DNA of 63,980 nt, counting the filler, from Sphacelaria rigidula (lineage: Eukaryota): the NCBI GenBank assembly GCA_964200075.2. It is 3 parts of 3 records of this genome, joined end to end, with 100 filler letters (N's around TTAATTAATTAA, not from the genome) between each part and the next. Parts side by side here need not be neighbours in the genome. Positions count along the whole stretch, not along the records: positions 1 to 21,478 come from CAXNAA020000417.1; positions 21,579 to 43,054 come from CAXNAA020000418.1; positions 43,155 to 63,980 come from CAXNAA020000490.1. One strand, written 5' to 3'. The translations under genes were made by a program, and so were the position numbers. Shown one piece after another: positions 790-62,531 of the stretch. Under the pieces are notes generated by a model. It did no database searches. It had not been told where the DNA came from and saw only the letters and a list, made by a program, of their open reading frames with translations. Every line of letters begins with the position of its first letter. The stretch's first letter is position 1.

Positions 790-1104
790 CCCCATCAGGT
801 GGACCGTATGCGGACCACTACACCAGTAGAGTTTAGCACTTGCTAGCTACTTGCTTTTAGTAGGGGAAAAAAACAAAAACCGGATCTTCAATGGGCGTGC
901 TGTGCTCCTAGCGTGCGCAGAACGCGTTCTTGTCTAAATCGGCGCCGATTTGAGGTCAGGCAACGCACACTTCGCCTTGAGAGCACTTTGCGCCCCCTTT
1001 GCCCGAGGGTTCTTGGTATGCCTTCGTCGGGGTTAGGAGTAGATTCAGAGTTAGTGTTATTCGGAATCATATATTTCCGAGAAATTTCCCACCCCTACCA
1101 AGTG

Positions 1105-1166
1105 CGTTGTCAATAGCCAAACGACTAAGGCAAGCAACAAATGAGTACCCCCCCTTCCCTCCCCAT
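1105..1166 (+). mobile_element. Extremely 5'-truncated copy of the same LINE with C-rich tail and 13-bp TSD
   Basis: gttgtcaatagccaaacgactaaggcaagcaacaaatgagtac-cccccc matches the reverse complement of 28611-28655. Flanked by CCCCTACCAAGTG (1092-1104) and CCCCCACCAAGTG (1167-1179). Confidence 0.8.
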
Positions 1167-1473
1167 CCCCCACCAAGTGGTAAACTGACCTCCACTATAG
1201 GCACGAGGTGCAGAATACGTTTTCCGACAGCCCTTGCATCGAGGCACCGAGCCAACTCGTTTGATGGTAGCACATAGAGCAAGCAACTGGACGAGGCATT
1301 CTCCCGTCGGTGTCCCAAGTGCGGGGTCGGCTTATTGTAATGTTTTCCCGTGCTTGCTTGGTGGCATCACTGATGTGGCGGAAGGATGGGAACATGGAAG
1401 AATGACGGGGTGTGGACCCGTAAATACGGGGTCCCAGAACTTCTGTTACCAAAAGGAGGGGACCCAAAGAAAT

Positions 1474-1551
1474 GCTAACGCTAACGCTAACGCTAACGCT
1501 AACGCTAACGCTAACGCTAACGCTAACGCTAACGCTAACGCTAACGCTAAC
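1474..1551. repeat. (GCTAAC)13 hexamer array
   Basis: Perfect repeat; a one-base variant of (CCTAAC)n, i.e. TTAGGG. Confidence 0.97.
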
Positions 1552-1664
1552 CTTGACCCAAGGCGTACGAGACCCTCGGGGGAAGGGGGTGCACAGGTTC
1601 CCCCAGACAAAGTGTGCGTTGGCAGACCTTAAATCGACGCCGATATCCTACTCAGGGATCTTAA

Positions 1665-1837
1665 CCCTCGGACAGCGAGAGTAGGTCATCTGTTGAATCG
1701 GCATGATCCAGAAAGACTACCCTCGCGGCCTAAGGGTTAACCCTTAGACGGCGAGATTAGTTTTTCTGGATAATGCATTTTTTTTTCACTTGAAATTGAT
1801 GCCGATTCAAGAGAAGACTAACCTCGCGGTCTAAGGG
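1665..1837. mobile_element. Two adjacent piggyBac-type MITEs (1665-1736 and 1741-1837) in opposite orientation
   Basis: TTAA at 1661, 1737 and 1838; CCCT...AGGG ends with TIR CCCTTAGACCGCGAGG(G/T)TAG. Related copies at ~245-425, 1975-2045, 11330-11650, 40385-40425 and 40783-40888. Confidence 0.8.
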
Positions 1838-2719: not shown

Positions 2720-2930
2720 ATAGATTGATTGATTGTCGCACTTGAACTGGCTCCCCAGGGATCAAGCCGTCGTCACATGATGGACGTACCCAAGAAACAC
2801 AAAACCGAAAACAGTTGCTGAAGAAAAAGAAGGAACAGAAAAAAGTCGAACAGAATGACATAGTAGACACAGACGCGAAAAAGAAGAAACAAGAAGAAAG
2901 AGTCAACAAAAAGCAAAGCACAGGGAATGA
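2720..2930 (-). repeat. (CAAT)n-tailed retroposon 3' end. Other copies: ~2262-2305 (+), 19700-19920 (-), 33250-33555 (+), 34005-34257 (+), 35322-35440 (-), 36650-36990 (+)
   Basis: Shared core gggtacgt.tat.atgtgaccacggc.gga...ctgggg...cagtt.a.tgcgac-aatcaatc. Confidence 0.8.
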
Positions 2931-3825: not shown

Positions 3826-4385
3826 AATAGACGCTCCCAAGCGTGGGAGCTCCCAGCTGATCAATATGCTCGGCCTTTGTTATTTAGATTTACATATAGA
3901 TTTATCCGTCAAATCAGCCGCTTTTCCAGGGGTGAATATCACGACCTCACTCTGCAGTCAGGTTACCGATCAAAATTCAAGGTCTTGGGGCCACTAGATA
4001 ACCAACTACATATCTGTTGATCGCATGAGAATCAACTAAGCTTGATATTGTATCACATGAACTGACGTACACCACTCGAACGTCAAACTCGAGTGACCTG
4101 CTGGGTATGAGGGCAGTTATACGCAACGAAAAAAAGTCATTATCCAAAGGTGGAAATCTGTGATTTTCTGATATAGTAGCTTTGAAGTTGCACCTAGATT
4201 GCTATCGAATTCCATACCCTCGCCAACACAGAGCAGGCAGGAAAACTTTCTTGAGTTTGACCTGCTCATGCGTGGGCGATTCCTGGGCGGTAAACCATGA
4301 CGGCGTTATTCAATTATAAATATTGGCAGATGAAAAGGAACAGGGTTCCTGTCGGGATTCTCTCTCATAATCGTTAGTCGTGGCG

Positions 4386-4690
4386 GGGGGGTGTACTCAT
4401 GATCTTGCATGCCGTAGTCATAAGACCATTGACCTCGCATTCCCACAGAGAGCTAGGACGGAGAACGCCGGGTTTTTGCCGGACCAGGCTTGCAATCACC
4501 AAGCGCGAAGCGCCGTGACGTGTTCGGCGAGTCGCATGAAGGGTGAGCTGAATCGTGCTAAGTTTGTTCAGCCCGACGCGTACTGATTATCTTGCATTTG
4601 GATGACAGCCTGCAATGAGTTACTTCATTTTCTGGTATCGCCATTTCCGGAGATAGCTACGGGTTACACACTGCCTCACGGATATCGCAG
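4386..4690 (-). mobile_element. Poly-C-tailed SINE-like retroposon, long form
   Basis: Homologous to 42715-43006 and 62277-62531; ends GATCATGAGTACACCCCCCC on the minus strand. Confidence 0.8.
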
Positions 4691-7535
4691 TCTAAGGGGA
4701 GAAGGGCGGAAGGCCATGACCACTAGCCTACAGCCGATGGAGACCTCTTGAGAGCTTGCAGCACACCTTAAACAGTAACAACCTTGATCTTTTCCCTCCC
4801 CAACAGTGTTATTTCATGATACTATATATAGAAATCACGCGACGATAGAAAATGACAGTATATGAGGAAACACGTCCATACATGCCTTAGGAGCATATAA
4901 CCCGCCCCCCCCCCCCCCGTACCTTCCGCATGACATTCCGAGAAAATAAACCTTTCTGCAAGACGGATGTCCAGCCAACTCGGGCCATTGTCCATTCCCT
5001 TACTGAAGTAGTGTCATACTCCGAGAGGGTCCGGGCAGCCAACGTGCTATCTGAGCGTTACTCCGCGTGTTTGGCGTCCAACGCGCCAAAATGAGCTAGT
5101 TCATGATCCGGATCAATATACTAATAAGAAGTAATATTTATGTAGCTCTTGAGCTGTCCGATGTGTGATCATTTCTCGTCATCTATCAGCGTCCGCCTCG
5201 ACTTCTACACATGATAATGAAAGCACGCCCCCCCGTTTTCCTTGCGGCTGACACACCACGTGGCCCTTTAGGGTACTACATCGATACCCACATGGAGGCA
5301 GCTGGCTTCACACCACCATCTACACATCACATACTAGGGCCGAAGCTCATGAGAGTAGGACGGCACGTGCACTGCGCCAAATCTACAGGGGGTTGTTGTT
5401 CTGTAGTGGGTCGGACCTCGACACTGCCTTGGGCAAACCTTGCGAACGCGCCAGGCGTCTACCCCGCTTGACTGCCATGAGGCAGTCTAGCGGAGCCTCC
5501 GGGTAATCGGCAAACGAACCCGCTTGCGGGGAGGGGTTGGGTCAAGTTTCCGCCCTTCCTTGGAAAGATGAAAAAAAAACCTTGAAGGTTCTGATGCTAT
5601 CGCATGGAAAGACAAGGCCGCTCCTCGGTGGAGGTTACTTTTCAAAAATACATTTCCTACCAAATGGTAAACTCTACTGCCTCCGTGGGTACGCTAAATG
5701 ATCTCTCCGGAAAACGTTTCACGGTTGGGACAACTCGTCACGACTCAAAACCACCAAATTCACGATTTCTTCGGCCTGATTGCCCAAAAGGGNNNNNNNN
5801 NNATTCCACGTGTCTGGGGTGCGCGTACCTGGGTTGCAACGCTAAAATAAAGCCTAGGGATTGATTATGGTCAATGGTTGCAAAAGGCCTTTAGTTTACA
5901 CTGTTTGTGTGTGTTGTCATCCCATCTATTCTGAACGCCAGTCTATACCTTTCGGTATATGAGGGCGCACCAGCCGGGGTCACACAGGAGGAAGGTCAAC
6001 ATGGGAGTTTTTCTTCTTCATTTGTTCTAGTTCTCCACCTTTTTTCTGCGGCACAACGCCCATACGTGGGGATAGATTTTTGTAGTGAAATTTGAAATTC
6101 AACCAATCCGAGGTCCTTCAGTGAGGAATCGGCGGAAGCTTGCGCCAATGAAAGGCGACCTTCGTAGTAAATAATGTAGTGAAAAATGCCTGTGATTGGC
6201 TCGCACACTCGAGTCACACCTATAGTGTACACCACGACGGATAGAACAGCAGCAGAGAAACGAAGCTGCAAGCAGACAAGTAGACAGTAAGTGGGAACCT
6301 GCCGCCGCAGTGAGTCATTGCGATCCTCGCATATCGGTATATCCCCATCTTACTATAGCTGGTTGTGTCTTTCCGTGGCCACAAGCGATGGCGCCGATGC
6401 CAGTGGCAGCAGCCGCCATGCTGACGGGTTCAAGCAATACCCTGGTGCAGTTGATCCGCACTGTGCTGTGCGTTGCTCCTTTAATCGAAGCACGGGGTCT
6501 CGCCCAGCCGTTCATACGGTGTATACCAGCGCTGGTTGTGTGTCTTTACCCAGCCATGTTCGGTATCGCGCAAGTGATGGGTCCGAGTAACATGAATTGT
6601 TCAAAAGGCAGTCAAGTGTGTATGTAGACCGTACTGCGTCCCAACTGACACTATATTTTACAAAGAGACGAAGACAACCATGCAGCAGCTCAAGCAATCT
6701 GAGCGGAGATCAAACCGTCTTCGAAAGGTCTAAACACACGACAGAACAATGATAGCTACAGCACATGAGAGAGGACGTGAGTGTGTTTGTGCTGCAGTAG
6801 AGTGAAACAGGACATGTCCCATGTTATAGTTCTTCGGCTGATTTCAAACTGGTCCTCAGTGTTTGTCGGGTGCCTGTCTTGAACGCTCGGCCGTAATCGT
6901 GCTTCACGCATATAATTTAATTCACTACAAAATCATCCCCATGTATGGGTCCTGTGCCCTTCCTGCGGTGCTTGCCTTATTTTTTCAATCGACCGAGACG
7001 TTCAGGCTAATTCTCATGTATAAAAATAAAAAACTAGTTGAAAAGTGCATTTTCTGTCTTTCTCCGTCGTTTCCCCGCCGGAAGACGGCTACGCGGATGT
7101 TGACACCTTGGAATGACTTGATCTACTCGCTGAGACCGTTTCAGAGCACCTTCGCGTTATCCGTAGGTCACAGTTTAGTTCTTGGTCAAACTTGAATTTT
7201 CAATAGCAAACGGTCAAGTTATAAAAAAACAGGGAAACGCAAAGGTGCTCTGGAACGGTCTCAGCGAGTAGAGCATAACAGTCCAGGGTGTCACACATCC
7301 ACCTAGCCCTCTTTCCGGGGCAAAAACGACGAAGAAGGGCCAAACATGCACTTTTCGACAAGTTTTTTCATTATTTTTATTTTTTTTACGGAAGAGGTAG
7401 CCTCAGAACTCCCTTTCCCTCATCGACCGTGAAGTCGAACTTTGTACATCTTTTTACACATTGCGACTGTTGAGCATAGATTGTCCAGGGTGTGCACTTT
7501 TCCGATCTGATTTTGGCCGGACGAGCGATTCCTAA

Positions 7536-28567: not shown

Positions 28568-29606
28568 CTACAGTGTCCCATCACTTACAGCAGGGGGGAG
28601 GCGTAGGAGGCGTACTCATTTGCTGCTTGCCTTGGTTCCTTGATTGTTGACCACACATCATTTTCGAGACGCAGCACCGCTCCTACTTCTAATAGAGACA
28701 CCTCCAACAGTTGCGCGCTCATTACGTTCCTTCCATACATTACCCCAAAACCTTTTACATCATTCAACCCCTTTTTGTTCCACCATCTGTGGCCATCATT
28801 TATCTCCTAGTATAGCCATCGTTTTGTCGCTACTATCTAATGTACCAAACGACTTCATGCCACCGTCGTTTAGATCTCGCATTTCCCCCCTTTAACACCT
28901 CCGGTTCCTCCGTGTATAGTTCACGTTCTGCCACTATGTGACATAAATTCTCTGGTACTTTGCCACAGCGGCAATTTTGTGCATTTACTTGATCCTCCAC
29001 AAGAAATCTGGTGCATCTCTTTCTTTTTACTGGCAGGTCCAGGTCCCCCGCCCGGATCGCACCGACAACTTTCTCGCGTAGTCCATTGGGTCGTGCAGAT
29101 ATGTTTTCATCCGTATCCCTTCTGTCAGTTCCCCGTATACCTTCACGTGCTCTTCCTATTTCTCCTGCATCCATCCATATTTTCTTGACTACACTATCCC
29201 ATCTTCTTCCATCTTGCCCCTTCGTCACGTTCTTTTACACAGCCCTATAAAGTAAGGCTGACAGTATCGTTCTTGATATGTTACGCTATATTGCCATTTC
29301 AATTTCCTCATGTTTTTGTTTCAAGTGGGCACGTCCCTAATTCTGCGCTCAGTACTGAATTTACTTGTCATTTGTGAGCATCCAAGTATTTCCTTAGCTG
29401 CTGTCATCTTTCCGGCTGCTTCACCAACTTCGCGATCCCTTCCCATACTTCTGCATATTTTAGCTTCGGTACAATCATATCAGTCAGAATACGTATCTTG
29501 ATCCTAGTATCGAGGTGCGACTCTCTGGGGTTCACGTCCATCTTGCTTATCTGTGCCTTACACGTTCCTACTACTTCATCTATGTGCGCATTCCAACAAC
29601 AGTTAC

Positions 29607-29866
29607 ATATATATATATAAAATATACAAGCCGCACGGACCCGGGGCTCATAATGGTCGCGAACGCATGTGTACCCCCGCACAAAGTAAAGCACGAATCC
29701 GCCAACCGGCCCCTAGCATTGGCATTGGCCCAAACAGTTATCTCCCGGGGCGGGGGCGGAGGAACTTGAACACTACAATCAGCAATAAATCTCGTGAACG
29801 CCTCGTTACAAAGTATGCTTCACGCTCGTGAGTTCAAAATATTCTATATATGTACTATACTATATA
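29607..29866. mobile_element. ~260-bp insertion flanked by TA-rich runs inside the LINE RT
   Basis: Interrupts ...YLGVDI / NCCWNAHI...; TA repeats on both sides. Class not determinable. Confidence 0.6.
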
Positions 29867-30513
29867 TCTACGCCAAGGTATATATCCTGGTCTACGATCG
29901 GCAATTCCTCTTCTTCCCACCTCTATTTGAACATTCCCGGGTTCTTCCTATCTTGGTTACATACTTGTACAAGTAACGCGCATTTGTTCACGTTCGCCGC
30001 ACTATCCACTTCCTATAATACTTCGTAGTGTATTCCAGCGCCTCGTGTACTTGCTTCTGCCATCCTTCTGATGAAGATATACCCACGAAATCATCCGCAA
30101 ATGTCAATCCCGATACCATATCTCCCCCCACGTTGACTCCTTGCTTTGCTGCTTTACTACTGCTATTATCATGTCATTAAAAATACCCTGAATAACGTGG
30201 GTGATAACGCACATCCTGTTGCAACTCCTTGTATCACGTGGAATATTTCGATATTTCCCCATCTAGCATCATAGCACTTCTCGCACATTCTGCCATCTCC
30301 TTCACCATCCTCCACATATTTCCTCTGATCCCACGTCCTCATATCTCTTTTCACGGCCCGTTTCTCCATACCGTGCCATTGGCTTCTTTACATGTAGAAA
30401 CCAGCACGTTGTTAGCCCTGCGTCTTTTCCATCTCCAACAATCTTACCTCATGTGTACACATGGTCTACACAGCTACGGTTTGGTCTAAACCCTGTTTAC
30501 CCCCCTCTGATTT

Positions 30514-30663
30514 AAGCCTGGTCCGGCGAAAACCCGGCGTGCTCCGTCCCGGCATTGTAGGGATGCGAGGTCAATGGTCTTATGACNNNNNNNNNNGCAT
30601 TGTCGGTACTGTAGGCCCATGTTCTGATATTTATTGCATGCCTGTTTATGGGTGCACCCCCCC
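30514..30663 (+). mobile_element. Poly-C-tailed SINE-like retroposon, short form, inserted in the LINE RT
   Basis: Starts aagcctggtccggcgaaaacccggcg and ends ATGGGTGCACCCC.... Flanked by the duplication CCCCCCTCTGATTT (30500-30513 and 30664-30677). Contains a 10-N gap. Confidence 0.8.
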
Positions 30664-31975
30664 CCCCCCTCTGATTTCTTCTTCTCTAGCGTCGTTCCCA
30701 CTCTATCGTTCAGTATCCTACAAAATGTCTTCCCTGCGGTGCTCAGTAGCGTTATCCCCCTATATTTCCTTGGGCTAGCCTTGTCTCCTTTCTTGACAAG
30801 GTTTACAACGACTCCTCCTCTGCGCCCTTTGGATGTGCACTTATCTACCATATATGTTACCTCGTTTCTAGCTTGAGCATACTCCTCCCCACCCTACGGT
30901 AGTCGACCAGTATCTTGCGTGGGCCCTTCTCCTTGCTCTTACAGCCTCTTTCGCTCCCTCTTTCCCCCCATTGTGCTGCTCTGTTGCATACGATTAGCTT
31001 CGTCCTCATGACTTTTTACTTGCTGTGACCTTGACCAGTAGCTCCATTTCTCCTATAATTTCCGCTCCTTCCCGATCCCTTTATCCCTTTTGGGGGGGCG
31101 AGGGGGGGTGGCAATTTTGCGCGGTGGGTTGTCAGCCCGGCATGACCGCACACAAGTGGGACCTCGCATGATACGAGTATTAGTATAATACTTCTTCTGT
31201 CCCGTAAGGTGGGGCCGTTAACTTTGTACAGAATAGTGACCGTGTCCGATTCTTGCCTTGTTTTTCTAAATACATTGTTCGGTGTTTTTCAAGTTAAAAC
31301 CCTTTTTTTTTACAATAGATGCCGCTGACCCCACGCGTCTGAACGACCGAAAAAGGATCAGTCTGCCCGACAACGGTCGTATTGCGCTCCTTTTCTGAAG
31401 ACAAAATAATGAAAACGCAGGAAAAACGGCAAAAAACGCCAAGAACTCCTCATTTAAGCCCTACTTCTCCTGCAGAGGGTAGCTACTATACGCCTTGTCC
31501 GAAACCACTTTGTCGCGTTTTCACTCATGTCCAGCACGGAAATGAACTGCAAAAATCGGTCGAATATATTCACATCCTGACGATATTACGAGCAAATAAC
31601 GACACCATTATCGGATCTTCTGAGGTCAGCCATACGTATTATCTTTCTTCTTTATTAGTTATCCCTGTTTTGCTTGTATCGCGTTTCGTGAGTTTTAGTC
31701 TGGGTCTATTTTGTTTCATTTTTTTGTTTTGTTTGATTTCTCCATGCCTTATTATAGGGAGCTAGCCTATGACCACGGAAGGCGTCCGTGTCAGATGCCC
31801 AGTACGAATATACCGCGCAGGTATCGGAACGGTTTTGAATGGGAAGACAACAACAACAACGACAACAACAACATTATTAGTATAACACAGAGGGGTCTTA
31901 ATCACATTCCCAAGCTTGCACATCAAGCACAGTGCTATCGCATGTAACGCACTACGTGCTGTCCGCCAAACGCAC

Positions 31976-35320: not shown

Positions 35321-35356
<36 letters not shown>

Positions 35357-36767: not shown

Positions 36768-36800
<33 letters not shown>

Positions 36801-41945: not shown

Positions 41946-42714
41946 AATGAGTCAGCTATACCGGACTTTCAAATGCACTAAGTGGCCTGTCACGCGGGGA
42001 AAAGTGGAACGAGTTCGAGATACGGTTCGTTTTACTGGGAAGCAAGATGGAGCGTTTTCCCGCTGTTTACTGCATCTGCAGAGCGATTGAATATTGTGGT
42101 GGCCCATGCGAGCGTTGCAGTCATTTGGTGGTGAGCCTCAGTTGACAACAAGTAGTAGCGGTCGATGCGTTTGTCCGCCGCATCTGGAAACAGCTTAAAA
42201 AATTCGATCGTTCTTGGAGTGAACATAGGTCAAACATGTTCGCGCTGATGCAGCAAAGACGCGACAAAGCATCACAGAGCTTACACACCGATCCCTATGA
42301 AAACACGCTAAAACACCCGCCACACAGTCACGTGTCTTTGTATCCGTTCTTACCTGCCCAAGACGCTTCCAACGCCTCAGAAGCGGATCTCATGTTTTGC
42401 TTTCAGACCCTCCCAATTGTACCCCGCCTGTTCCGGCGACAACCCGGCGTGCTCCGTCCCGACTTTTTAGGAAGGGACCCCCGATTGGGTCGGCGTCGGA
42501 TGGCGATGACGCTGTAAAACACGCCACTAACTGCGTAAGCTGAGCAACCAGGTTACCGATTTGTTTTGCGCGCTTACGTTTTTTTGCGGCAACTGTGATG
42601 GTAGTCGAGCTCGATCGCGTTGTGCGGCGTGGAAGAACCTCAACTCCACACAATGGGGATGATCGTACTACGTAGTGTTTATTTGGTGAGGCACCCACGA
42701 AGCAAAGTATAAGA

Positions 42715-43054
42715 CGTGGCTGTCTCTGGAAGTGGCGATGCCAAAAAAAAATCAAGTCAATTCAGGCTGTCATCCAAATGCAAGATAATCAGTAGGCTTC
42801 GGGTCGAGCAATCTCAGCAGGGTGCTGCTCACCCTTCATACGACTCGCCGAAGGCACCACGGCGCGTCACGCTTGGTGACTGAGTGCGAGCCTTATCCGG
42901 CGAAAACCTGGCGTGCTCCGTTCCGGCATTGTAGGGATGCGAGGTCAATGGTCAGATAGCTATGGCACGCATGATCATGAGTACCCCCATTCCCTCCCCC
43001 CCCCCCGGTTGGACACCCATGAGGCAGTGTAAAGGCCGTGGCTGTCTCTGGAAG
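42715..43054 (+). mobile_element. Poly-C-tailed retroposon, long form, followed by the start of another copy
   Basis: Ends GATCATGAGTACCCCCATTCCCTCCCC...; 43010-43054 repeats upstream family sequence. A partial short copy lies at 42426-42480. Confidence 0.8.
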
Positions 43055-46288: not shown

Positions 46289-46694
46289 ACCAAGGATTCT
46301 ATAAAATGAGGTTCATCAATGAAATGAGGTTCGAGCCCAAAACATTACTTTCTCCACACTTTCAGCGATGGTGCCCGATGACGTTTTTGTCGGCCTAATG
46401 CCCCTCCATCGCGTAGGTACTTTTTCAGCGCATTTTACCGATTCTGGGAGCTTACAGCGCTGACCAAAACTGCTGTTTTCCCTGATATCACCCCCCCTAA
46501 AACATGAGTAGAAATGGCGGTTTCGGACAACGCTGTAAGCTCACAGAGTCGATAAAATGCGCTGAAGAAGTATGTACGCGATCGAGGGGCCGACAGAAAC
46601 GTCATTGGGCACCATCGCTAAAAGCGTGGAGAAAGTACTGTTTTGAGCTCGAACCTCATTTCATTGATGAACCTCATTTTATAGAATCCTCTGT
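46289..46694. mobile_element. Tc1/mariner-type foldback MITE inserted in the Gypsy gag region
   Basis: ~190-bp imperfect TIRs (AC(CA/AG)AGGATTCTATAAAATGAGGTTCATCAATGAAATGAGGTTCGAGC...) flanked by TA at 46287-88 and 46695-96. Confidence 0.9.
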
Positions 46695-47696
46695 TATTTG
46701 AAGAGTCCGGCCGCACCTCATCGCAAAATCGACGACCCCGCACTGACCGCGAACCACCGTCCCGCTCCGATGCTGCGACTATTTGCTCTCTTTAACATCG
46801 ATTGACAGAACTTGAGCGCCAACTCTCAACAATGGACAACACAAGATCCACTGCCGCTGCCGCCAAGATCACCACGGAGCCCTCTGGCGTTCCTGCAGCA
46901 ACTACTGCCGCAACACCTGCCGCTGCCGCCGCCGCTACCTTGGCCGCTGAGCCTTCTGCGACGCCAACTACACTCACGGCTCCAAAACCCGTGGCCGCCC
47001 CGTCCGCAGTCGACACCGACGCGGATAGCGGTCCCACCACTGACCCGGTCGAAGATGCCCCCGTGCGCTCGCCCCCATCCGTAGAGGATCTCCCTCCGCT
47101 CGGCGACGAGTGCTGTCCGACTGGCCTCCTCTTGAGGCTGTTCCGAAACCGCCCCCGCACGGAGCAGCTATAACTCATTGACGACTACGCGTCACAAGCA
47201 CCAGCACTAGCACAAGACATCCTCGACCAGCAACGCGAAGCTGACGCTGACGCTGCCCGCCTCCTTCTGGACTAGCACGCTGAGAAGCAAAATGATCTTC
47301 AGCGGCAGGTCTCCAACGCTCAATGCACGAGCACGGCTGCGCAACGAGCGCTGCAGGAAGGTCGCACTGCAGCCATGGCGGCTCAGAGACGGGTACTCGA
47401 GCTGGAAGACCATGTCCGATGGACGGCTCAAGAAGCGGCTTCGTCGGTGGCGCGCTTGTCCAACCATCAAGCCTCTCCGCCTTCCACCAGCAGCTTGCTC
47501 AGTGCCCGTCCGCCTCGCCAGCCAACGACCAACATGTCTACTTACGTAATACTACCTAAGTCCGACAAGACGTCGTATGCTGCGGCCGCTGCCGCCCCCA
47601 CGACGGCTCCAGCACCGCCACCTCGTGGAGCTAGCTCGGCGGCGAATGCCGTCCCTGCCCAAGGCTTGCAACTGGCGCCCCACGACCGAGAATGGC

Positions 47697-47883
47697 TTTC
47701 TCGTTCCGTGGCCGCCCATACCGGTCCCTTCCATCGCAGCAACCACCTTCATTGCTCCCGCGATGCATAGACCCTTATTTCGCAGCAACCTTTCTCGTTC
47801 GTGGGGCGCCCATACCGGTCCCTTCCATCACAGCAACCACCTTCATTGATGCCGCGATGCATGGACCCTTATTTCGCAGCGAA
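47697..47883 (+). repeat. Two ~93-bp tandem repeats in the gag extension
   Basis: tttctcgttc...cccataccggtcccttccatc.cagcaaccaccttcattg...gacccttatttcgcagc is duplicated. Confidence 0.85.
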
Positions 47884-50800: not shown

Positions 50801-51071
50801 CAAAATCAAATAACTCTAACGCCACCACTTCTTCAATCGATGACTCCAGCCCCGCACATTCTGGATCCCCCTTGGACGGTGATCCCTGCCAACCGAAGAC
50901 GATAAATTACAAAATCGCCAATGGTCACTCTGACCGTGCCACACCTGGAAATAACACACCATCCACGCCCTTCTCTGGTGAAACATCTGACCCACCGGCG
51001 GATCACTCGCCGTGCGTTTTTGCTGTCAGTCCCGCTGATCCTGACAAGTTTATCTTTCCGGAACACGTAAA

Positions 51072-51440
51072 GTGTCTGTAGATCCGCCTACTTTCACTAC
51101 TCGCATTGCGATCCATTCCGGTCCAAACGCTATCACGCCTACGAAATGCGTGTCGTTCTTGGACAGCGGCAGCCCGCAAACATTTCTTCGTGAATCAACA
51201 TGGAAACACATTAGACAGACTGGCGCTGCTACTGCAGCTTGCGAAACCACCACCAAACCTCGCGTGTGGGGCGGTTTCGGTGATTCTGCCGCGTCACTGA
51301 CGACACGTAAATCCGTACGATTCAGAGTGCAATTCTTTCACAACACCACTCGATCTGCCACACTGGCAGTCTGGGCATACATTGTCCCCGACAGCACAAT
51401 GCATCACGTCATATTATTGGGCAGAGATAGCATATGCGGT
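51072..51440 (+). pseudogene. pol: Retropepsin aspartic protease
   Basis: FLDSGSPQTFL catalytic motif (D at 51162) and ILLGRD motif. Confidence 0.9.
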
Positions 51441-52029
51441 TCAACAAACGCACCTCCCGCACGCTTCCACCACTAATGCCACATTCCACGCCGCGTGGAG
51501 AATTCAACCTCGAGCACTTCGGTACTCTCCACGGCGCCCTGGCCTATCAGAAGAGTCCTCAAACAACCGGAGCTGCTTACCACCTACGATATAACGGTAG
51601 GGTCGGTATTACACTCTCCGACGACCCGCAACTTCTTGAAGTTGCACTAGTTCGCCGAAATGGCATGTCAGCACTTACGGGCCATTATCGTGCCGAAATG
51701 TTGCCCCGTATCGGCGAACCAGCCGACACAGAACATCTTGTGTCGGCGGGACAACAACTCCTCCCTCTTACGGGTCATGCTAACTTGGAAGCCGGCGATG
51801 GTTTAGGAATCGCCGCTGCTCCCCTGATGCACATCCCACTCGAGACGTGCGTCACAGAGCCTGCCGCGCCAAACGCCACATCCCCGGCGGAGTCAGTCCA
51901 ATGTGTCGATGAACCCTATTTCGACCTCGCCTCCGCGACTCCATCCCAGGTCCACACCATGGATCCTGCCCAGGCAATTCCGATCCTCCTGCTGAAGTGC
52001 TTCAATGCGTATCGCCAGATTCTCGGAAT

Positions 52030-53510
52030 AGTTCCTTGCACATGTGGAACCAACTGCCGCCACACATGCGCGACATCAATTTTTATCTTCGTGGGCCCGG
52101 CTGGGAACCGGCAGTCATCCGAGAACTCAATGATATTCTGCTACAGTATTAAGACCGATTTTCCCGATCAAAGACGGATCTTGGGCATTGCAAAACACTG
52201 CCCTTTGAGGCTACCCTCCAACCCGGTGTCTTGTCGATTTCTTCTCGGCCGTACCGAACAAGGGCGATCCTTACCACGAACGTTAACGCCATCTTGGATG
52301 CGTAGTTGGAAGCGGGATTAATACAACATTCCTCCTCTCCTTGAGCCTTGCCCTTCGTGGTAGTCCCCCAAAAGAATGGAAACATACGCAAAACCGTGAA
52401 TTATCAACGGTTGAACCGCGTCACCGTAGTCGGTAAACTTCTATTTCTCCGTATTGATGAAATCTTCGACTCCTTAGGCGAAGGCAAAATATTTAGCACC
52501 TTCGACCTCGCTTCTGGATTTTTTCAGAATGCTATACACCCTGACACAGTCCCACTGACGGCTTTTTATACCTCGTCCGGACTCTATGAGTGGCTTCGGA
52601 TGCCACAAGGCGCCCCCACTGCCCCGGGATACTTTCAACGCTTAATGCAACGCGTCACCGAGGGCCTCGAGCACATCATCATGTACCTGGATGACGCTAT
52701 CGCTTTCGATGCCTCACCTATTGCACATATACGCACTCTACGCTAATTTCTCTCTCGCCTACGCACGCACGATTTGAAAGTGTCTCCATCCAAAGCTCGC
52801 CTTGGTGCGACTGACTTGAATTTCTTGGGACATTTCATTTCGCTAGCAGGCCTGCATCCGGATACAAACAAAGTCAAGGCGATGAATGATTTGCCAATGC
52901 CAACTAACATTTCTCAACTTCGCTCATTGTTGGGAGAGCTATTCTACTACCGCAATTTTTTGCCGAGTTCATCTAAACGGATTCGCCCCCTTACTGCGTT
53001 ACTCAAGAAAGGAGCCGTGTTTTCTTTCACAACCGGAATGAAGAATATCACCCACGAATTACTCAAGACGCCTACCGAAAAGCCGGTACTTTGCTTTCCC
53101 GATTGGGAGGCAGTACGAGATGGCTCCCACCTTTTCTAACTCCACACTGACGCCAGCACAAACGGATGTGGAGGAGTTTTGAATCAACCTCAGGTTGATG
53201 GCTCTGTCCCACCCATCCTCCATATCAGCCGCGCTATCCTGCCCAACGAGGCTAATTGGAGCCCGCTAGAACTGGAAGGTGGAGTAATCACTTGGGCCAT
53301 TAAGTGCCTTCGACAATGTCTGTTTCACGTGCCCTTTGAGATCTATACAGATCACGGAGCACTCGAACAACTCGCCAAGGTTGGCGAACACAACCCGCGT
53401 GTACAACGATGGTTGGGGTTTCTCACAGCATACCAGTATACCATTAAGCACCGTCCAGGCAAAACCAACGAGAACGCTAATCTTCTTTCTCACCTACCTC
53501 TCCCGCCTAC
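52030..53510 (+). pseudogene. pol: Reverse transcriptase and RNase H (interrupted)
   Basis: RT motifs PFVVVPQKNG, VNYQRLN, FSTFDLASGFFQ, YEWLRMPQG and YLDD (52684). RH motifs LHTDAS, NWSPLELE, YTDH and RVQRW..FL..YQY.IKHRPGK. In-frame stops near 52342, 52744 and 53137. Confidence 0.95.
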
Positions 53511-54129
53511 AGCCGCAGATTCCAGTCCGGCTTGCCGTTCAAAGGAACCCGATGAACCTGAAATTGACGCGATCAGACGTTTCCCAACGCCCGTTTACGC
53601 CCTCGACCTCCAGTGCCCGGAAACCGGTATGCATATGGGAGGACCTCGCCCTCTACCATATGACGCCGTCTTGGGTGGGTTAAAGCCCGCTGCCTCCGAT
53701 TTTGTCGATTTTCGCACTTTCGGTACTCGTGCGAAATTCTTCGCGGAGACACCTACAGTCACCCACCTTATCTCCGACAACACGCGCTCTTGGTCTATCG
53801 CCTGCACCACAACGAGTGCCCCGCCGCCACCGATAACACCTACAAAACCCACGAGCCACGCAGTACAAGTTCCACGGACCAGCATGCAACGCTCCGCGAA
53901 AACTCCTGCAACGTACACCACGCGCCATGAACAATCTTCGTCGCGCACTAATACAGCCCCGCCGCCCACCACGGCGCCGCCAACATTTACCGCTCCCGGA
54001 CACGGCGCTGACGACCTAGCTCCTGCCTCCGGGACAGATATTGATGTCGGCATTCCCGCCCCGTCGCCTATTCCCGCGCCGCCTGCCCCACCATGTTTGG
54101 TCGGCTCGCCAACGTAAGATCAACTACGC

Positions 54130-56332
54130 AAGTTTTTCGCCAGCTACTCCCACCGCGATTGGACTCGCGACAGACCGCAGAACCGCTACGTCGCGCAACC
54201 ATTCGGTACTTACAACTCGACTGTCCAGTCCCTTTTCCATCCACACTTCTGGCCCCGGTTGGGACACTGCCACCACCAGTTACTTCTGACGTATACGAGC
54301 TTGTGCGTAAAGGCACCCTTTTTACTACAGATGAAGATGTGCAACTACTCGTGCGTCCGCCCACGCCTTTGACAGGCGCAATTGCCGTCTCAACGACGGG
54401 ACGCACCGCACGACTACTCAATGACGAACCAACGCGCATATATGTGCCATTATTAATGCGCCCCTGAGTCATGACAGGCTGCCACACAGGCTTGTCATGT
54501 CACCTTGGCGTCACCCGTACTCTCGCGCTCTTGGAACGCTCCTACTGGTGGGTTGGCATGAAAATTTCAACCCGCTTCTGGATTCGGCGATGCTTTAAAT
54601 GCCAAGCCCGAAAAACTTCACGACAGACAGTACGCTGGCTCGTCATCTCTATGGGACTCCCCAACGAGCCCGGCCACCTTGTGTTCTTTGACTACTTTGG
54701 CCCTCTACCGACCATAGGTCGCGGCACACCTACATCTTACTCTTCACTGACCGCTTCAGCCGCCACGCGCCCATGTACGCGGTAACCGCCGCAGATTTCA
54801 CTGCCGCCGGAACGGCCGACATATTGGTCCACGATTACATTAAACACCACAGTTTCCCCAAGCGACTACTTTCAGACAATGGTCAGCAATTTTGCTCAGA
54901 TCTCTCTGATGAGCTTTACAAGCTCCTGGGCATCCGCAATATTGCCACGAGCGCCTACCACCCGAACGGTAACGGTGGTACCAAGAGAGTCAACTCCACC
55001 ATGGCGCAGATACTCTCTGTGGCTGTCAATGACCGCCAAAATGACTGGGACCTCATCTCTCGCACATCATGTTGTCCTACAACAACTTGGTTAATACCGC
55101 CACAGGCCTTTCTTCGAACGGACTTCATCTTGGACGTTACCCTCGGCTGCCTATCACCGTGTTTGAGCGACACACGTCCGACGGCCACCAAGGATTGGAT
55201 TAGGATCAGATATCCTACCATGAGCTAGCGCATGCGCGACAATGCAAAGCGTTTACCCTCGTGCGCGAACAGCACACTATCAACGCCTCGCTCCTAGAGA
55301 GATCTAACACTGATCTCTACAACCTCATGCACAAACGCCCCAACTAGGAAGTTGGTGATTGGGTTTGGATCTACAACAATTTGTCAACCATCCGCCAAGG
55401 CACCAGCAAGGCAGCCAACGAAACAATTTTGAAGACAAAATTGTCCCTCAATTGGATAGGACCATTCAAGATCCTGACAGTCGGACCTTCGTCATCATCA
55501 CCAGATGAAAAACTCGTTGGCGACGAACTGTTCTATCTCGACTTGCCTCGCGACTTCCAGGGCAAAGATACCAAGCCCCGCGTCTCTGTGCACAGATGCA
55601 AACCCTGCACGAACCCGCATGATACAAGTGACATGCCCAAGTACCTGCCTGCCGGACTCGCACAGTATGTTCTCAACAGCTACTCGACCAAGTCCCCGCC
55701 CTACTACGTTACAACCGACGACGTGACGGAACAGCCCCTTCGATTGATCGTGTCATCCATCTCCGGCCACCAGATATCACGTGGTCGAGGTGGCAAAATC
55801 GCTGTCATGTATAAGACACACTGGCACGGTCTTCGGAGAGCGTCTTGGGAACGCGAATCCGACCTGCAATTGCACCACCGTGCAATCCTCCTTTACTGAA
55901 CGCAATCCCCAACATCAGCATCTGGCTCACAACAAGAAATATCGCAACATGCGTCATGGCGCAGCAGCCCGCGAACTTTACCGTAATCAGGGACTACGCT
56001 TTGGTGCCGACGGTTACGAACTTGTACCCACCAAGACTTGTAAGACGAAGTTCTTCGCGAACCAGCGACTCCTGCCCAAGGGCAGCTACCTTTGGTTCGA
56101 AGGCAGCGACAACCTCTTGTGGTTGGGTCAGACCCACTCCGCTAACCTGGTTTCGGCCGACACATACATCGTGCGCTTCATCGATGACCCTGGACCCATA
56201 CAGCTCAAGCTAACCACCAACCCATCTGCACCACACGCATCCTGGTGTCTCCAGTGCCTCAAGTCCAAAGGACTTCGCCGTGGTCTCCAGCGCAGCATCG
56301 ACCACACCCACGACGTCCACGCCCCGCTTTAA
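54130..56332 (+). pseudogene. pol: Integrase (HHCC, DDE, GPF) with chromodomain and C-terminal extension
   Basis: CHTGLSCHLG...CFKC zinc motif, DYFGPLP, LLSDNGQQF, YHPNGNGGT(K)RVN (catalytic E mutated) and WIGPFKI. Chromodomain ISGHQISRGRGGKIAVMYKTHWHGLRRASWERESDL at ~55740-55880. Confidence 0.92.
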
Positions 56333-58800: not shown

Positions 58801-61025
58801 GACGACAAACCGACGGTTAGCACGAGACGAAGAGATGCACCACGCATACATGCAATACGTAGCACACACGAACACAAGGCTTGTCATCCTTCGCACTCTG
58901 AAAATAAACGCTTGAACGATACACTCGACGCGAGCGCTATACTCGACGAGAACGCGGGACCGTTCAGGGGAAGTGAACAGGGAGGGAGGAAGAGAGGGAG
59001 GGATGGATATGATTCTCTTCATCCACTTGTTTTCGTTCATCTTTGAAGAGTGAGCCCAAAAAGACAGAGAAGGGGGGGGGGGGGACATGCTGGTACTCCA
59101 ACCCAAGGTATGCATGTCGTTGTATACCATGGCCGCCGACCCCTCATGTAGGGTAGATACAACCAAAACTCCGTCCGCAAAACAGCCATGCACTTATGTA
59201 GCGTTGCCTCTGCTACTGCCTTCAACACACGCCGCTCCTACCTCCTCCTCTGTCCCTCTCCCGCCGCCCCCCTCACTCGAAAGGAGAAAAAACGCTGCTG
59301 CTACCATACACATGCACAACAATTGCAACGCACGTCACCTGTCTGTATTCGTAGTCGTGCCGGCAAAGCTAACCAGCGTGTACAGCACAGACAACATAAT
59401 AACGACGTGCAATGTCCCTCACACTATCGTTATACTGGCAGCTCAACAAAAAAAAATGAATCGAACCGAACTAACTGAACCATTCCATGTATGCTTGCAA
59501 TCACTATACTTCACCCCGGAAGCTCCGACACCCCTCGCGCGTCACGGCTGCAACACTTGGCATGCACGTGAAATGGGAATTACCCATTAAACCGAAAAAT
59601 AGCCCACAGAATCATGGATCTGTCCAGACCTCTCGGGACTGCAAGAAGGATTTAGGGCACCATACCCGCAGGGAGCGTCTCTACAGTATTATTGTACACT
59701 GAAATCATCCTCAGCACAAAAGTCGCAAAACGTTTGAATTGACCCCATGTATGGAATCACTCCAAAATGACCATGGGGAAGACGAGGAGGGTGGGGGACG
59801 GGTACTTGGAGCAGCCAAAAATGTGTTGACCATGGATCGAGCACTAACCCAAGGTTGCCATCGGCCTCCGAGAGAGGCACAGTTGTAACCCATCAGCATC
59901 CAGTTCTAAACCAGATGGAAGGAAACACTTAGGACCCATTGTAAGAGACTCGACAAAAACAGTAATAAAAAGAAAAAGAGAGAAAAACGAAAGCAGTGGC
60001 CAAAAGTTGCAGATGAACAAAGACTCAACCAACAAACCAACCAAACAACCAACCAAACAACCAACTAAAAAACACACACACAAAGGAGAGGACGAAGACC
60101 TATATCAAAGCGAATCCTCCTCCGTAAAAGAGTAAAAGTAAAAAGTCAATCTTCATCTTGCAAAAACACTGCGCTCTCTCTCCGTGACTCGAGAAATATA
60201 ACGGGCGAGGACATCCACGTTCATATTTTGCGCCGTGCACCAATGTTCTTCACAGCTGCAAAACAATATGAAACAGTTTCAAAGGGGAAAATGAAGGAAA
60301 AGGAAAAGTCACTTACAGCGCAACTGATATGTACGCATACGTGAATACACCGTAACTACCAGAAACAAAGCGAAAACAAGAAAACGATTGTGCCCATTGC
60401 TATAGGGTCAAGACACATATTTCCTATCCATCCTTCATCCATCCTTCAAAAATTGCCCTCAAATCACACATTCCCGCAGACACCCACCCCACCCTGGTCC
60501 CCCCTCATGCCGCGTGTATCTCGACGTAAAACGGCTTGCCATCACCCTTCAAGATTCACACCCGGGCTTTTTCTTCGTCTACGAGCTCATCAAATCAACG
60601 GAAAAAAAAGGCAAGTCTTCCAACAATGACGGCGGTGGCGACGACGACGACGACAGCGACAAACTCCCCGAAATACAAACTCCCCCACCTCTAGTGACCC
60701 AAGGCCTCGCCCTACCATCACCACACTACAGAATGGGTACAGTAGCACGGGAATGAACGCAAAAATCGTCCCTCTCAGCCCATCGCCTCGCCGCCTGCTT
60801 TATATGAACCTACCTACGGGGATGGCGATCAAATTGTGTTTTCAAACGGGGAGCAAATTAACACCCACCGACTCGGCCACCGCCGTCAGTTGCGCTTTCA
60901 TAAATCTATGAATCCATCAAGAGGTAAAGTGAAGTGAATTAATTGTGTCGGAGCTTCCACTTTCTTTGTGGCTGCTCCTACTGCTGCTGCTGCTGCTGTG
61001 GCTGTGGTGGCCCTTTTATTCTTAC

Positions 61026-61097
61026 TTAACTTGACTTGACTGGCAGGCCGTACTTTCCATCCACCGATCCATCGGCCGCGTCCACTAGACGGAACAC
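61026..61097 (-). CDS. EF-hand protein, terminal exon
   Basis: gctgcag| acceptor; VFRLVDAADGSVDGKYGLPVKSS* completes the helix (NEFFE-VFRLV); TAA at 61028-61026. The upstream exons were not found in the window. Confidence 0.82.
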   Translation of the reverse strand: MFRLVDAADGSVDGKYGLPVKSS

Positions 61098-61849
61098 CTG
61101 CAGCAAAAGGGTAAAAGGACAAATGAGTAGATGAGCAGATAAGTAAATGAGTAGATGGGCAGATCAAGAAATATACAAACGACTACATGAATAGATGGAA
61201 TTATGAATATATGAATATGGATACATGAGTACATGTAGAGATAATCCTTTTTTTCTTGGTATGTGGAGCAGATATAAATATCTTCAAAGTCCCAGTGTGA
61301 TAAGTGGTGGTGAGCGAGAAGAGCTCAAGAAAATCGCTAATTACGGAAAAACCACAAAATGCCACAAGATGATGAGTTAGATCGCCCACTACTCTATACC
61401 TTTCGCAGTACCTTTCTTATCGATTGCAACTACTGACCATCATATACTGTCCTGGGTGTCATTTTTTTCCCGCGCATGCGTACTTACAGACTCGCGACTC
61501 ATGCCACCGCAGGGGTTTGCACGTTTGAGCCCGGATATTTCTCACTTGGGGGGCTGCCAAATTCAGGGGCTATTATACACACGAATATGAGTCAGGACGT
61601 TGCCGATTCAAATTTCATTAGGGACATGCATAGCCGATTGGAAGGATGATAGCGGCGTGCCGTCATATATTTCACCGGTCGTGTTGTGGGTGAGACATTG
61701 GGCTCCTAACAATTCAAACCTTGGCAGCCCTACCGCGGCATGACTCCTACGACGGTCGTACAATAAAGGCAGCAAGGGGATACGGCGAGCTGATCATGCT
61801 TCGTGAGTACCGCAGTATGACACACACATACACACACAGACACACACAC

Positions 61850-61945
61850 CTCGAAGAACTCGTTGATGTCAATGGAGTCGTTGTTGTCCATGTCCATGAC
61901 ATCCAGCATGGCATCGAAGTTCTCCAGGTGTTCCCCATCTGCCGC
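61850..61945 (-). CDS. EF-hand protein, penultimate exon (C-terminus resembles PPEF/rdgC Ser/Thr phosphatases)
   Basis: ctctcag| acceptor and gag|gtgtgt donor, 96 nt, phase 0-0. AADGEHLENFDAMLDVMDMDNNDSIDINEFFE contains a canonical EF loop DMDNNDSIDINE. Confidence 0.88.
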
Positions 61946-62055
61946 CTGAGAGTTGATCAGCTCGCATCCCTTTTTTTCGGGGAGGGGGAGGGAGGGGGGG
62001 ACCCGAGAACAAGGGAACAGCACAACATACACCAAAGACGTCAGCAACAAAAAGA

Positions 62056-62531
62056 GGGGGGGGGGGGTGGATGTACTCATAATCTCGCATACTACATATT
62101 TAAGACTTTTGGCCTCGCATCCCTACAAAGCCGCGACCGGGCACGCCGGGTTTTCGGCGGACCAGGGAGGGCGGGGGGGTACTCATGATCTTGCAGCTAG
62201 TCATGTGACCCCGGTGACCTCGCATCCCTACAAAGCCGGGACGTAGAACGTCGGGTTTTCGCCGGCCCAGACTCGTGGGGAAGGTGTACTCGTGATCATG
62301 GATGCCGTAGTCATCAGACCATTGATCTCCCATCACTAGAAAGCCGGAACGGAGCACGCCGGGTTGTCGCCGGACCAGGCTCGCACCCAATCACCAAGCG
62401 CGAAGCGCCGTGGTGTGTTGGGCGAGTCGCATGCAGGGTGAGCTGCATTATCCTGCGAAGATTGTTCGGCATACAGATTATCTTGCACTTGGATGGCAGC
62501 GTACAATGAGTTGCTTTATTTTCTGGTATCG
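62056..62531 (-). mobile_element. Three stacked poly-C-tailed retroposon copies (one long, two ~110-bp short) upstream of the EF-hand exons, probably intronic
   Basis: gtactc(a/g)t(g/a)atc...cctcgcatccctacaaagccg...ggttttcg.cgg.ccag is repeated at ~62072, ~62179 and ~62286, each preceded on + by a G-run. Confidence 0.85.

What the first reader, a model, noticed from the sequence alone, without database searches (positions are those of the whole stretch)
1092..62531. LINE and SINE-like partner sharing an ATGAGTAC + poly(C) terminus and inserting at C-runs
Seen: the LINE at 28593-31095 (-) ends with its stop codon inside AAATGAGTAC followed directly by a C-rich tail. A ~60-bp truncated copy at 1105-1166 has the same end and a 13-bp TSD CCCC(T/C)ACCAAGTG. 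A separate non-coding family (4386-4690, 30514-30663, 42715-43006, 62056-62531) ends GATCATGAGTAC(A)CCCC..., and one copy has the TSD CCCCCCTCTGATTT. Known: L1/Alu use a poly(A) tail that pairs with a T-rich nick and give TSDs starting with As, and LINE/SINE pairs often share 3' ends. Inference: this is a C-based analogue in which an endonuclease nicks next to G-runs and a poly(C) tail primes reverse transcription. I am not aware of this being a standard described mechanism.
Basis: partly seen in the sequence, partly recalled or inferred. Interest (0 to 1): 0.78.

Follow-up and report, generated by a model that had tools for sequence, protein, structure and literature searches.

The report
Brown-alga LINE and partner with C-tails
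A jumping gene (LINE) and a short non-coding hitch-hiker in a brown-alga-like genome end in the same sequence plus a run of Cs and land at C-runs; this is real, but the same arrangement has already been catalogued in the model brown alga Ectocarpus.

Summary
The degraded LINE at 28593-31091 (-) ends with its stop codon in AAATGAGTAC followed by a C-rich tail. Four marine-metagenome contigs carry the same LINE, two of them with open endonuclease-RT frames of at least 1157 aa, and all four end ...KASNK-stop, G[A/C]TACG, then C8-C11 or a C-rich run. A non-coding family (8 copies or pieces in the window) shares its last 72-78 nt with the LINE (E 6e-11 to 3e-9) and ends GATCATGAGTAC(A) plus Cs. In each of three DNA read sets, over 1000 contigs show that same end. 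Four of 8 insertions tested have 13-18 bp target duplications that begin with a C-run, and one has a paralogous empty site. Copies often sit head-to-tail in each other's C-tails.

It is not new. The curated Ectocarpus transposon table (PMC12477816, supplement) lists RTE-X LINEs with "(C)n 3'" and "C-rich" TSDs. It also lists non-autonomous RTEX-N partners that share a 60-bp 3' end, have an unknown head, and are sometimes tandem.

Verdict: a new member of a known kind in another brown-alga-type genome. It is not a proven SINE, and it resembles stringent LINE/SINE pairs more than L1/Alu.

The parts
28593..31091 (-). Degraded, 5'-truncated LINE copy. It corresponds to about residues 285-1170 of the intact relative P0088, with many stops and frameshifts, an internal deletion, an unrelated insert near 29600-29870, and copy F inserted at 30514-30663.
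   Evidence: Translation and tblastn with P0088. The motifs RGITLLSTAGKTF, FADDFV and the CX2C..H..C knuckle can be read directly.
28593..28619 (-). LINE 3' terminus: ATGAGTAC (28612-28619, with the stop TGA inside), then G, then the C-rich run CCTCCTACGCCTCCCCCC.
   Evidence: The same terminus is present in L001-L004.
31092..31110 (-). C-run directly upstream of the truncated LINE 5' end (CACCCCCCCTCGCCCCCCC). It is the probable 5' copy of a roughly 16-bp C-rich TSD.
   Evidence: Local alignment of the flanks: 16 columns with 2 mismatches and 1 gap. The sequence is low-complexity, so this is weak.
1092..1179 (+). 5'-truncated LINE 3' end. Body 1105-1148, C-rich tail 1149-1166. TSD copies at 1092-1104 and 1167-1179, possibly 17-18 bp long.
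   Evidence: (blastn to the LINE end, 86% over 42 nt).
4381..4709 (-). Non-autonomous copy A, long form. It ends GATCATGAGTACA plus C7GCC. The 5' end is uncertain and is preceded by C-rich sequence.
   Evidence: (nhmmer E 6e-101).
30500..30677 (+). Short unit F inserted in the LINE in the opposite orientation. Body 30514-30656 (holds a 10-N gap), C-run 30657-30669. Exact 14-bp TSD at 30500-30513 and 30664-30677.
   Evidence: Intact LINEs L001/L003 carry the site once, giving a paralogous empty site.
42417..42495 (+). Partial short unit G, preceded by GTACCCCG. Its 3' half is missing.
   Evidence: (E 2.7e-9).
42636..43009 (+). Non-autonomous copy B, long form. ATGAGTAC at 42977-42984, tail CCCCATTCCCTCCCCCCCCCCC. 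The 5' boundary is not determined; homology in other genomic copies reaches at least about 42636.
   Evidence: and 54 (joints 42678-42681 to 43012-43015, and the letters between 42636 and 43007).
43010..43054 (+). Start of a further copy (B2) that abuts B's C-tail. It is cut off by the contig end and linker.
62056..62531 (-). Head-to-tail chain: C (62278-62531, 5'-truncated long form), then short units D (62165-62277) and E (62056-62166). Each begins in the C-tail of the one before. E has a 13-bp TSD (CCCCCCCGCCCTC / CCCCCCCCCCCTC).

Best explanation
This is an APE-endonuclease/RT non-LTR retrotransposon of the brown-algal RTE-X type, together with a non-autonomous retroposon family that borrows its last 72-78 nt. 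The LINE has one long ORF; a complete relative is 1360 aa, with an N-terminal region, an APE nuclease, an RT and a CCHC knuckle. Its stop codon lies 4-5 nt from the element end, so the sequence the RT must recognise lies inside the C-terminal coding region, and the partner has copied that region.

Both elements end in GAGTAC(G/A) followed by (C)n. Insertion is most likely by target-primed reverse transcription. The endonuclease nicks the bottom strand just 3' of a G-run (G-run^T/A). The exposed G-run pairs with the C-run at the RNA 3' end and primes cDNA synthesis. A second nick 13-18 bp away then gives a TSD that begins with Cs.

Because each new copy leaves a C-run (tail plus TSD), old tails become targets in turn, which produces head-to-tail chains.

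Shown: the element anatomy, the shared end, the C-tails, the C-first TSDs, the tandem chains and the very high repetition. Inferred: nick specificity, G:C priming, and how the RNA acquires its C-run.
For: The intact relatives L001 and L003 have open frames of 1170 and 1157 aa that run off the held DNA. Both match Exo_endo_phos and RVT_1. P0090 is a complete 1360-aa ORF on a 4903-nt contig.

In L001-L004 the ORF ends ...KASNK-stop. The terminus is AAATGAGTACG in 3 of the 4 and AAATGACTACG in L002, and it is followed by a run of 8-11 Cs (L001-L003) or a C-rich run (L004).

An HMM built only from window copies A, B and C hits the last 72 nt of all 4 LINE loci (model positions 224-301), with E 5.7e-11 to 2.8e-9 (alignment).

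All 12 of 12 3' ends examined (6 LINE, 6 non-autonomous) are followed by a C-rich run.

TSDs were found in 4 of 8 insertions tested, and all 4 begin with a C-run. The empty site for F is seen in intact paralogues. F has 13 Cs at its 3' junction against 6 in the 5' TSD copy, so at least 7 Cs are tail and not target.

Seven of the 9 5' junctions I defined have a run of at least 4 Cs within 25 nt upstream, against 6.6% of random positions.

Genome-wide, 1189, 1010 and 1063 contigs in X1, X3 and X4 continue past 30586 with the consensus TACGGCATGCAAGATCATGAGTACACCCCC. Joints from tail end (42988) to unit start (30515) occur in 15, 3, 9 and 3 contigs.

The RT region is 68% identical to Ectocarpus proteins. 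The published Ectocarpus RTEX-1/2 and RTEX-N1/N2 notes match point by point.
Against: No TSD could be found for A, B, C or D (4 of 8). Two of the four TSDs (E and the long LINE) are low-complexity C-runs that could align by chance. The 5' ends of A, B, B2 and G were set by me and are uncertain, so the 7-of-9 count is descriptive only.

The nick-site rule rests on 4 junctions. No conserved RNA fold was found in the shared end: the consensus structure is -1.6 kcal/mol with 6 pairs, and single folds are no better than shuffles.

RTE-X membership was not tested by phylogeny. It rests on homology to Ectocarpus proteins and on the match to that paper's description of RTE-X families. The link between those proteins and the named RTEX-1/2 consensus sequences is inferred.
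Confidence: 0.82

Rival explanations
1. There is no real tail. The element ends at GAGTAC(G/A) and is simply site-specific for pre-existing (C)n/(G)n tracts, as microsatellite-specific LINEs are for their repeats. All flanking Cs would then come from the target.
For: C-runs lie on both sides of the insertions. For the long LINE copy the whole 3' C-rich run can be read as TSD. The Ectocarpus note for RTEX-2 itself reads '(C)n termini/TSD'.
Against: F has 13 Cs at its 3' junction against 6 in its 5' TSD copy, and intact paralogues have only 4 Gs at that site. The truncated LINE at 1105-1166 carries 14-18 nt of C-rich sequence between GAGTAC and its TSD that is absent from the 5' flank. The two ideas can both be true: a tail and a C-run target.
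Confidence: 0.12
2. The short non-coding copies are only 5'-truncated or internally deleted LINE copies and not a separate family.
For: They share the LINE's last 72-78 nt. The head has no recognisable small-RNA origin. The Ectocarpus curators saw weak similarity of the RTEX-N1 head to the 5' end of RTEX-2.
Against: Positions 1-223 of the family model match nothing in the 3.5 kb of LINE held in L001 or L003. Nothing in the window resembles the first 300 residues of P0090 or P0092 at the copies. Units D, E, F and G start within about 6 nt of one another, unlike random truncation. The LINE 5' UTR was not available, so a 5'UTR-plus-3'-end derivative (RIME/ingi style) is not excluded.
Confidence: 0.15
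3. It is a DNA transposon whose C-run is a terminal inverted repeat.
For: None beyond the constant C-run at one end.
Against: The 5' flanks carry C-runs in the same orientation, not G-runs. Copies are 5'-truncated. The partner encodes an RT and an APE nuclease. TSDs vary from 13 to 18 bp.
Confidence: 0.01

Closest known systems
Ectocarpus RTEX-1_Ec32 / RTEX-2_Ec32 (LINE/RTE-X) with RTEX-N1_Ec32 and RTEX-N2_Ec32 (PMC12477816, Supplementary Material 3; I read main-text passages and parts 1 and 3 of that file)
   Same: A single EN-RT ORF, '(C)n 3'', and TSD noted as 'C-rich'. The non-autonomous partners share a roughly 60-bp (N1) or 100-bp (N2 to N1) 3' end, have a head of unknown origin, and 'can be present in tandem'. 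They come in a long form (607 bp) and a short form (188 bp) and are the most abundant families in the genome. The RT region of the LINE studied here is 68% identical to Ectocarpus proteins.
   Different: This is a different genome and different sequences. The short unit here is about 105-120 bp, and the long form is over 370 bp with an undefined 5' end. The paper gives only table notes: no nick-site analysis, no discussion of the stop codon in the terminal motif, and no mechanism.
Stringent-type LINE/SINE pairs with non-A 3' repeats, such as UnaL2 with (TGTAA)n and the I element with (TAA)n (as described in PMC3747384, passages read). Green-algal RTEX families end in (CA)n, (CAA)n or (CCAT)n (its Table 3).
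   Same: The partner copies a specific LINE 3' sequence. The tail is a short repeat rather than poly(A), and is probably kept up by slippage or annealing at initiation.
   Different: The repeat here is a homopolymer of C and matches the start of the TSD. No conserved 3' stem-loop was detected.
Mammalian L1 / Alu
   Same: A homopolymer tail complementary to the nicked target strand, TSDs that start with the tail's base, variable TSD length, and 5' truncation.
   Different: The L1 tail is poly(A), added by polyadenylation, and is the only thing shared with Alu. L1 has two ORFs. Alu has a 7SL head. None of these features is present here.

Membership tests
Non-LTR retrotransposon (APE-type LINE) | ORF with an APE-like endonuclease N-terminal to a reverse transcriptase | tested here: met
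   P0088, P0089 and P0090 match Exo_endo_phos (E 7.6e-7, 2.4e-5 and 3.4e-12) and RVT_1 (E about 1e-31 to 7e-33). The window copy aligns to residues 538-1170 of P0088.
Non-LTR retrotransposon (APE-type LINE) | 5'-truncated copies with variable-length TSDs and no LTR or TIR | tested here: met
   Truncated copies at 1105-1166 and 28593-31091. TSDs of 13-18 bp in 4 of 8 insertions.
RTE-X clade | Placement of the RT domain inside the RTE-X clade in a phylogeny with reference elements | not testable with these tools
   No Repbase references are available. PDB matches (R2, L1 ORF2p, E about 1e-21) only show that it is a LINE RT.
RTE-X clade | Single EN-RT ORF and a non-A simple-repeat 3' end, as described for brown- and green-algal RTEX | tested here: met
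   A 1360-aa single ORF on a 4.9-kb contig. (C)n ends. Compare.
RTE-X clade | Homology to the named Ectocarpus RTEX-1/2 families | tested here: inconclusive
SINE (strict sense) | 5' head derived from tRNA, 5S, 7SL or another pol III gene with an internal promoter | tested here: not met
   ARAGORN found 0 genes. Rfam found 0 matches at gathering score over the window and 0 at E<=10 on 42600-43054. The full 5' end was not defined, so a head further upstream is not excluded.
SINE (strict sense) | Short and non-coding, with a 3' end shared with a partner LINE, TSDs and high copy number | tested here: met
L1/Alu-type (relaxed, poly(A)-dependent) mobilisation | A poly(A) tail as the only shared 3' feature | tested here: not met
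   The tails are C-runs, and 72-78 nt of specific sequence are shared.

The most novel reading that the evidence does not exclude
The C-run is both primer-binding site and target. The endonuclease would cut specifically at G(n)^T/A, and the G-run would anneal to the RNA's C-run. Because the TSD's Cs fuse with the tail, every insertion would rebuild a DNA-encoded (C)n that read-through transcripts carry on. The element would then keep a homopolymer tail without any poly(C) polymerase, and its own tails would become its favourite targets, building arrays. That would be a natural, self-renewing G:C counterpart of the L1 T-rich-nick/poly(A) rule, in a lineage far from animals.
Probability: 0.4. 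Interest if true: 0.55.

Novelty: new member of a known kind. Interest (0 to 1): 0.33.

Why it matters
The case shows that pairing of a tail with the nicked target strand is not tied to poly(A): a G:C version exists in brown algae at very high copy number. This gives a clean natural system for asking how much of TPRT site choice comes from the nuclease and how much from primer-template annealing. It could also help explain how short tandem arrays seed in brown-algal genomes. For genome annotation, the family here should be labelled as an RTE-X-dependent retroposon and not as a new class.

Tried and rejected
No whole genome is held for the window, so a genome-wide TSD table could not be made.

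Searches that gave little:
- Pfam on the window's own LINE fragments gave only sub-threshold hits.
- A word-based protein search with a 72-aa RT fragment found nothing.
- The exhaustive protein search with the 133-aa C-terminal fragment gave 79 short, broken relatives and no full-length one.
- The protein atlas gave only weak zf-RVT-like leads.
- An exact-pattern scan of metagenome contigs for the partner's core found 0.
- The first alignment, A2, was too diverse for the search for related loci. A smaller alignment, A3, worked.

RNA evidence: no RNA holder is listed among the sequencing runs. X6 is only guessed to be RNA, so its contigs over the LINE and the partner say nothing firm about expression or about a C-tail on RNA. 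Summed contig depth is not a copy number, as the tool itself warns.

Structure and head: folding of single ends gave z-scores of -0.5 to +1.5, so no structure signal. The alignment fold was weak. The head shows no similarity to the LINE N-terminal coding region.

Earlier scan notes held nothing on this genome or sequence.

Literature searches for a C-tailed LINE mechanism ('C-rich tail', 'poly-C tail', 'poly C' with TPRT terms) found no main-text description. Only the Ectocarpus supplement records it. Part 2 of that supplement file and the paper's TE library were not read.
Full report
**What the window is.** The 63,980 bases are three contigs joined by N44-TTAATTAATTAA-N44 linkers at 21479-21578 and 43055-43154. 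The middle piece is 21,476 bases, which is the length of the NCBI contig that carries the window's own LINE fragment, P0001. G+C is 44-57%. No tRNA gene and no Rfam family reaches threshold. No whole genome is held. The nearest named proteins are from Ectocarpus, and one read set that holds the region is labelled 'algae metagenome'. I therefore treat the source as a brown alga or a close relative. This is an inference.

**The observation.** ATGAGTAC occurs 7 times against 1.8 expected, and 0 of 100 shuffles reach 7. Six of the seven are element ends. The seventh, at 61225, sits in AT-rich sequence with no C-run.

On the minus strand the LINE at about 28593-31091 reads ...CAA GGA ACC AAG GCA AGC AGC AAA TGA GTAC G, followed by CCTCCTACGCCTCCCCCC. 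The copy is badly decayed. It has many stops and frameshifts, and an internal deletion of roughly residues 365-538 of the intact protein. It also carries an unrelated insert near 29600-29870 and a copy of the partner family at 30514-30663. It still aligns to residues 538-1170 of an intact relative, and the RT motifs can be read directly.

The 1105-1166 piece is the last 44 nt of the LINE plus an 18-nt C-rich tail. It lies between CCCCTACCAAGTG (1092-1104) and CCCCCACCAAGTG (1167-1179). With one indel the duplication extends to 17-18 bp.

**The LINE elsewhere.** An exhaustive protein search with the 133-aa C-terminal fragment found 79 relatives. All were short and broken, and those looked up came from ENA or Logan assemblies.

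A scan of metagenome contigs with an alignment of six of them returned four loci. L001 and L003 carry open frames of 1170 and 1157 residues that run off the held DNA, and both match Exo_endo_phos and RVT_1. A complete relative, P0090, has 1360 residues on a 4903-nt contig, so the element has one long ORF and short UTRs.

In all four loci the frame ends ...KASNK-stop. The terminus is AAATGAGTACG in three loci and AAATGACTACG in L002. What follows is C8 (L001), C11 (L002), C10 (L003) or CCTCCCCCCCTCCTCCC (L004). The stop-in-terminus architecture and the C-tail are therefore properties of the active element and not accidents of one decayed copy.

**The partner family.** Self-comparison, alignment and an HMM built from copies A, B and C find these copies in the window:
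- A at 4381-~4709 (-)
- B at ~42636-43009 (+)
- B2 at 43010-43054 (cut by the contig end)
- C at 62278-62531 (-)
- short units D at 62165-62277, E at 62056-62166 and F at 30514-30663
- fragment G at 42417-42495

D, E, F and G begin within about 6 nt of the same point (...GCCTGGTCCGGCG). This argues for a preferred start, or for a separate short subfamily, rather than random truncation.

The same HMM hits the last 72 nt of all four metagenome LINEs (model positions 224-301), with E 5.7e-11 to 2.8e-9. It hits nothing else in their 3.5 kb (alignment). The head matches no Rfam family, even at E<=10, and it does not match the LINE's N-terminal coding region. The true 5' end of the long form is not defined. 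Joints in the read data show that homology in other genomic copies continues upstream of 42680, to at least about 42636.

**Genome-wide support.** I laid the Logan contigs of four runs on 28400-43054 at 80% likeness. In that layout 1189 (X1), 1010 (X3), 1063 (X4) and 162 (X6) contigs run past the 10-N gap in copy F. Their consensus there is TACGGCATGCAAGATCATGAGTACACCCCC, with agreement 0.68-0.76. After 42988, 53 contigs of X6 go on with about 14 Cs.

In X1, summed contig depth is about 3.1 million and 2.5 million in the two bins that hold the short unit, and about 0.1-0.23 million over the LINE body. In single-copy bins it is about 70. The tool warns that this is not a copy number, so I take it only as 'very highly repeated'.

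Joints from the tail end (42988) straight to the unit start (30515) occur in 15, 3, 9 and 3 contigs. Head-to-tail arrangement is therefore common in the genome and not a quirk of 62056-62531.

**Tails and targets.** All 12 of 12 3' ends read (6 LINE, 6 partner) are followed by a C-rich run. I aligned 5' and 3' flanks for 8 insertions, with these results:
- F has an exact 14-bp TSD, CCCCCCTCTGATTT.
- The truncated LINE has a 13-18 bp TSD.
- E has a 13-bp TSD with one mismatch that lies in D's tail.
- The long LINE has a roughly 16-bp C-rich match with 2 mismatches and a gap. This one is low-complexity and therefore weak.
- A, B, C and D gave nothing.

F sits inside the LINE, so intact LINEs serve as a paralogous empty site. 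L001 and L003 carry AAAAT[T/C]AGCGA[A/G]GGGC once, where the window has AAATCAGAGGGGGG on both sides of F.

F's 3' junction has 13 Cs against 6 in the 5' TSD copy, so at least 7 Cs came with the element. Read on the bottom strand, the four targets are GGGGGG^TAAAC, TGGG^AAATT (or GGGG^TGGG), GGGGGGG^TGGCA and GGGGGGG^TACTC, that is, a G-run followed by T or A.

Seven of the 9 5' junctions as I defined them have at least 4 Cs within 25 nt upstream, against 6.6% of random positions. Three of those junctions are tails of other copies, and some 5' ends are uncertain, so the count is descriptive only.

**Mechanism.** The data fit target-primed reverse transcription. A nick is made 3' of a G-run, the G-run pairs with the RNA's C-run, and a second nick falls 13-18 bp away. 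Existing C-tails are then reused as targets, which gives chains such as C-D-E and B-B2.

The 72-78 nt of shared specific sequence points to stringent recognition of the LINE's own 3' end, which here is coding sequence. I found no conserved fold in it. How the RNA obtains its Cs is open. The simplest idea is transcription through the DNA-encoded tail plus the TSD C-run, with slippage at initiation, as proposed for other LINEs with repeat tails (PMC3747384, passages read).

**Comparison with what is known.** The curated transposon table of Ectocarpus is Supplementary Material 3 of PMC12477816. I read main-text passages, ran a supplement search, and read parts 1 and 3 of the file. I did not read part 2. 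The table lists:
- RTEX-1_Ec32: 'single EN-RT ORF; (C)n 3'', TSD 'C-rich'.
- RTEX-2_Ec32: '(C)n termini/TSD'.
- RTEX-N2_Ec32: 188 bp, 'could be SINE'.

The main text calls RTEX-N1 the most abundant single family. Every structural point of the present finding is in that list. Green-algal RTEX families end in other short repeats (PMC3747384, Table 3). An RTEX-1 element is also reported in Saccharina (PMC4421812, passages).

My searches for a main-text description of a C-tailed LINE mechanism found none. I could not run an RT phylogeny with Repbase references. RTE-X membership is therefore inferred from 68% identity to unnamed Ectocarpus proteins and from the matching description.

**Verdict.** This is a new member of a known kind. 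What remains worth testing is the nick specificity, the origin of the C-run on the RNA, and the self-targeting of tails.

Noticed in passing
28488-28567 (+), 2723-2800 (-), 33479-33543 (+), 35341-35421 (-): A second retroposon-like family ends in a (CAAT)n/(TCAA)n repeat, directly beside the LINE's 3' end. In the read data hundreds of contigs end here with variable TCAA-type or A-rich continuations, and the bin depth is very high. It is probably the 3' end of another LINE or dependent family with its own tail type.
   Followed up: partly
1155-1164 and 42990-42999: Two independent tails, one on a LINE piece and one on partner copy B, both contain TTCCCTCCCC inside the C-run. This could be C-to-T decay or a templated tail variant.
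   Followed up: no
21479-21578 and 43055-43154: There are N44-TTAATTAATTAA-N44 linkers, so the window is a chain of three contigs. Both the first and the middle contig break inside repeats: a LINE RT fragment at 21303-21474, and partner copy B2 at 43010-43054.
   Followed up: yes
44488-56332 (+), e.g. 53140-54117: A G+C-richer block with long open frames on the + strand. One frame matches RT_RNaseH (E 9e-22), so this is a Ty3/Gypsy-type LTR retrotransposon.
   Followed up: partly
29600-29870: An unrelated repeat flanked by TA-rich simple sequence interrupts the LINE. About 70-90 contigs per DNA run align here with fixed differences from the window copy.
   Followed up: no
63723-63980: A tandem array with a 9-bp period runs to the end of the window. 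Further arrays lie at 62931-63313 and 43404-43980.
   Followed up: no
P0090 residues 1-170 (relative of the LINE; not in the window): The complete LINE ORF has an N-terminal region of about 170 aa ahead of the endonuclease with no Pfam match. It could be an RNA-binding module fused into the single ORF.
   Followed up: no
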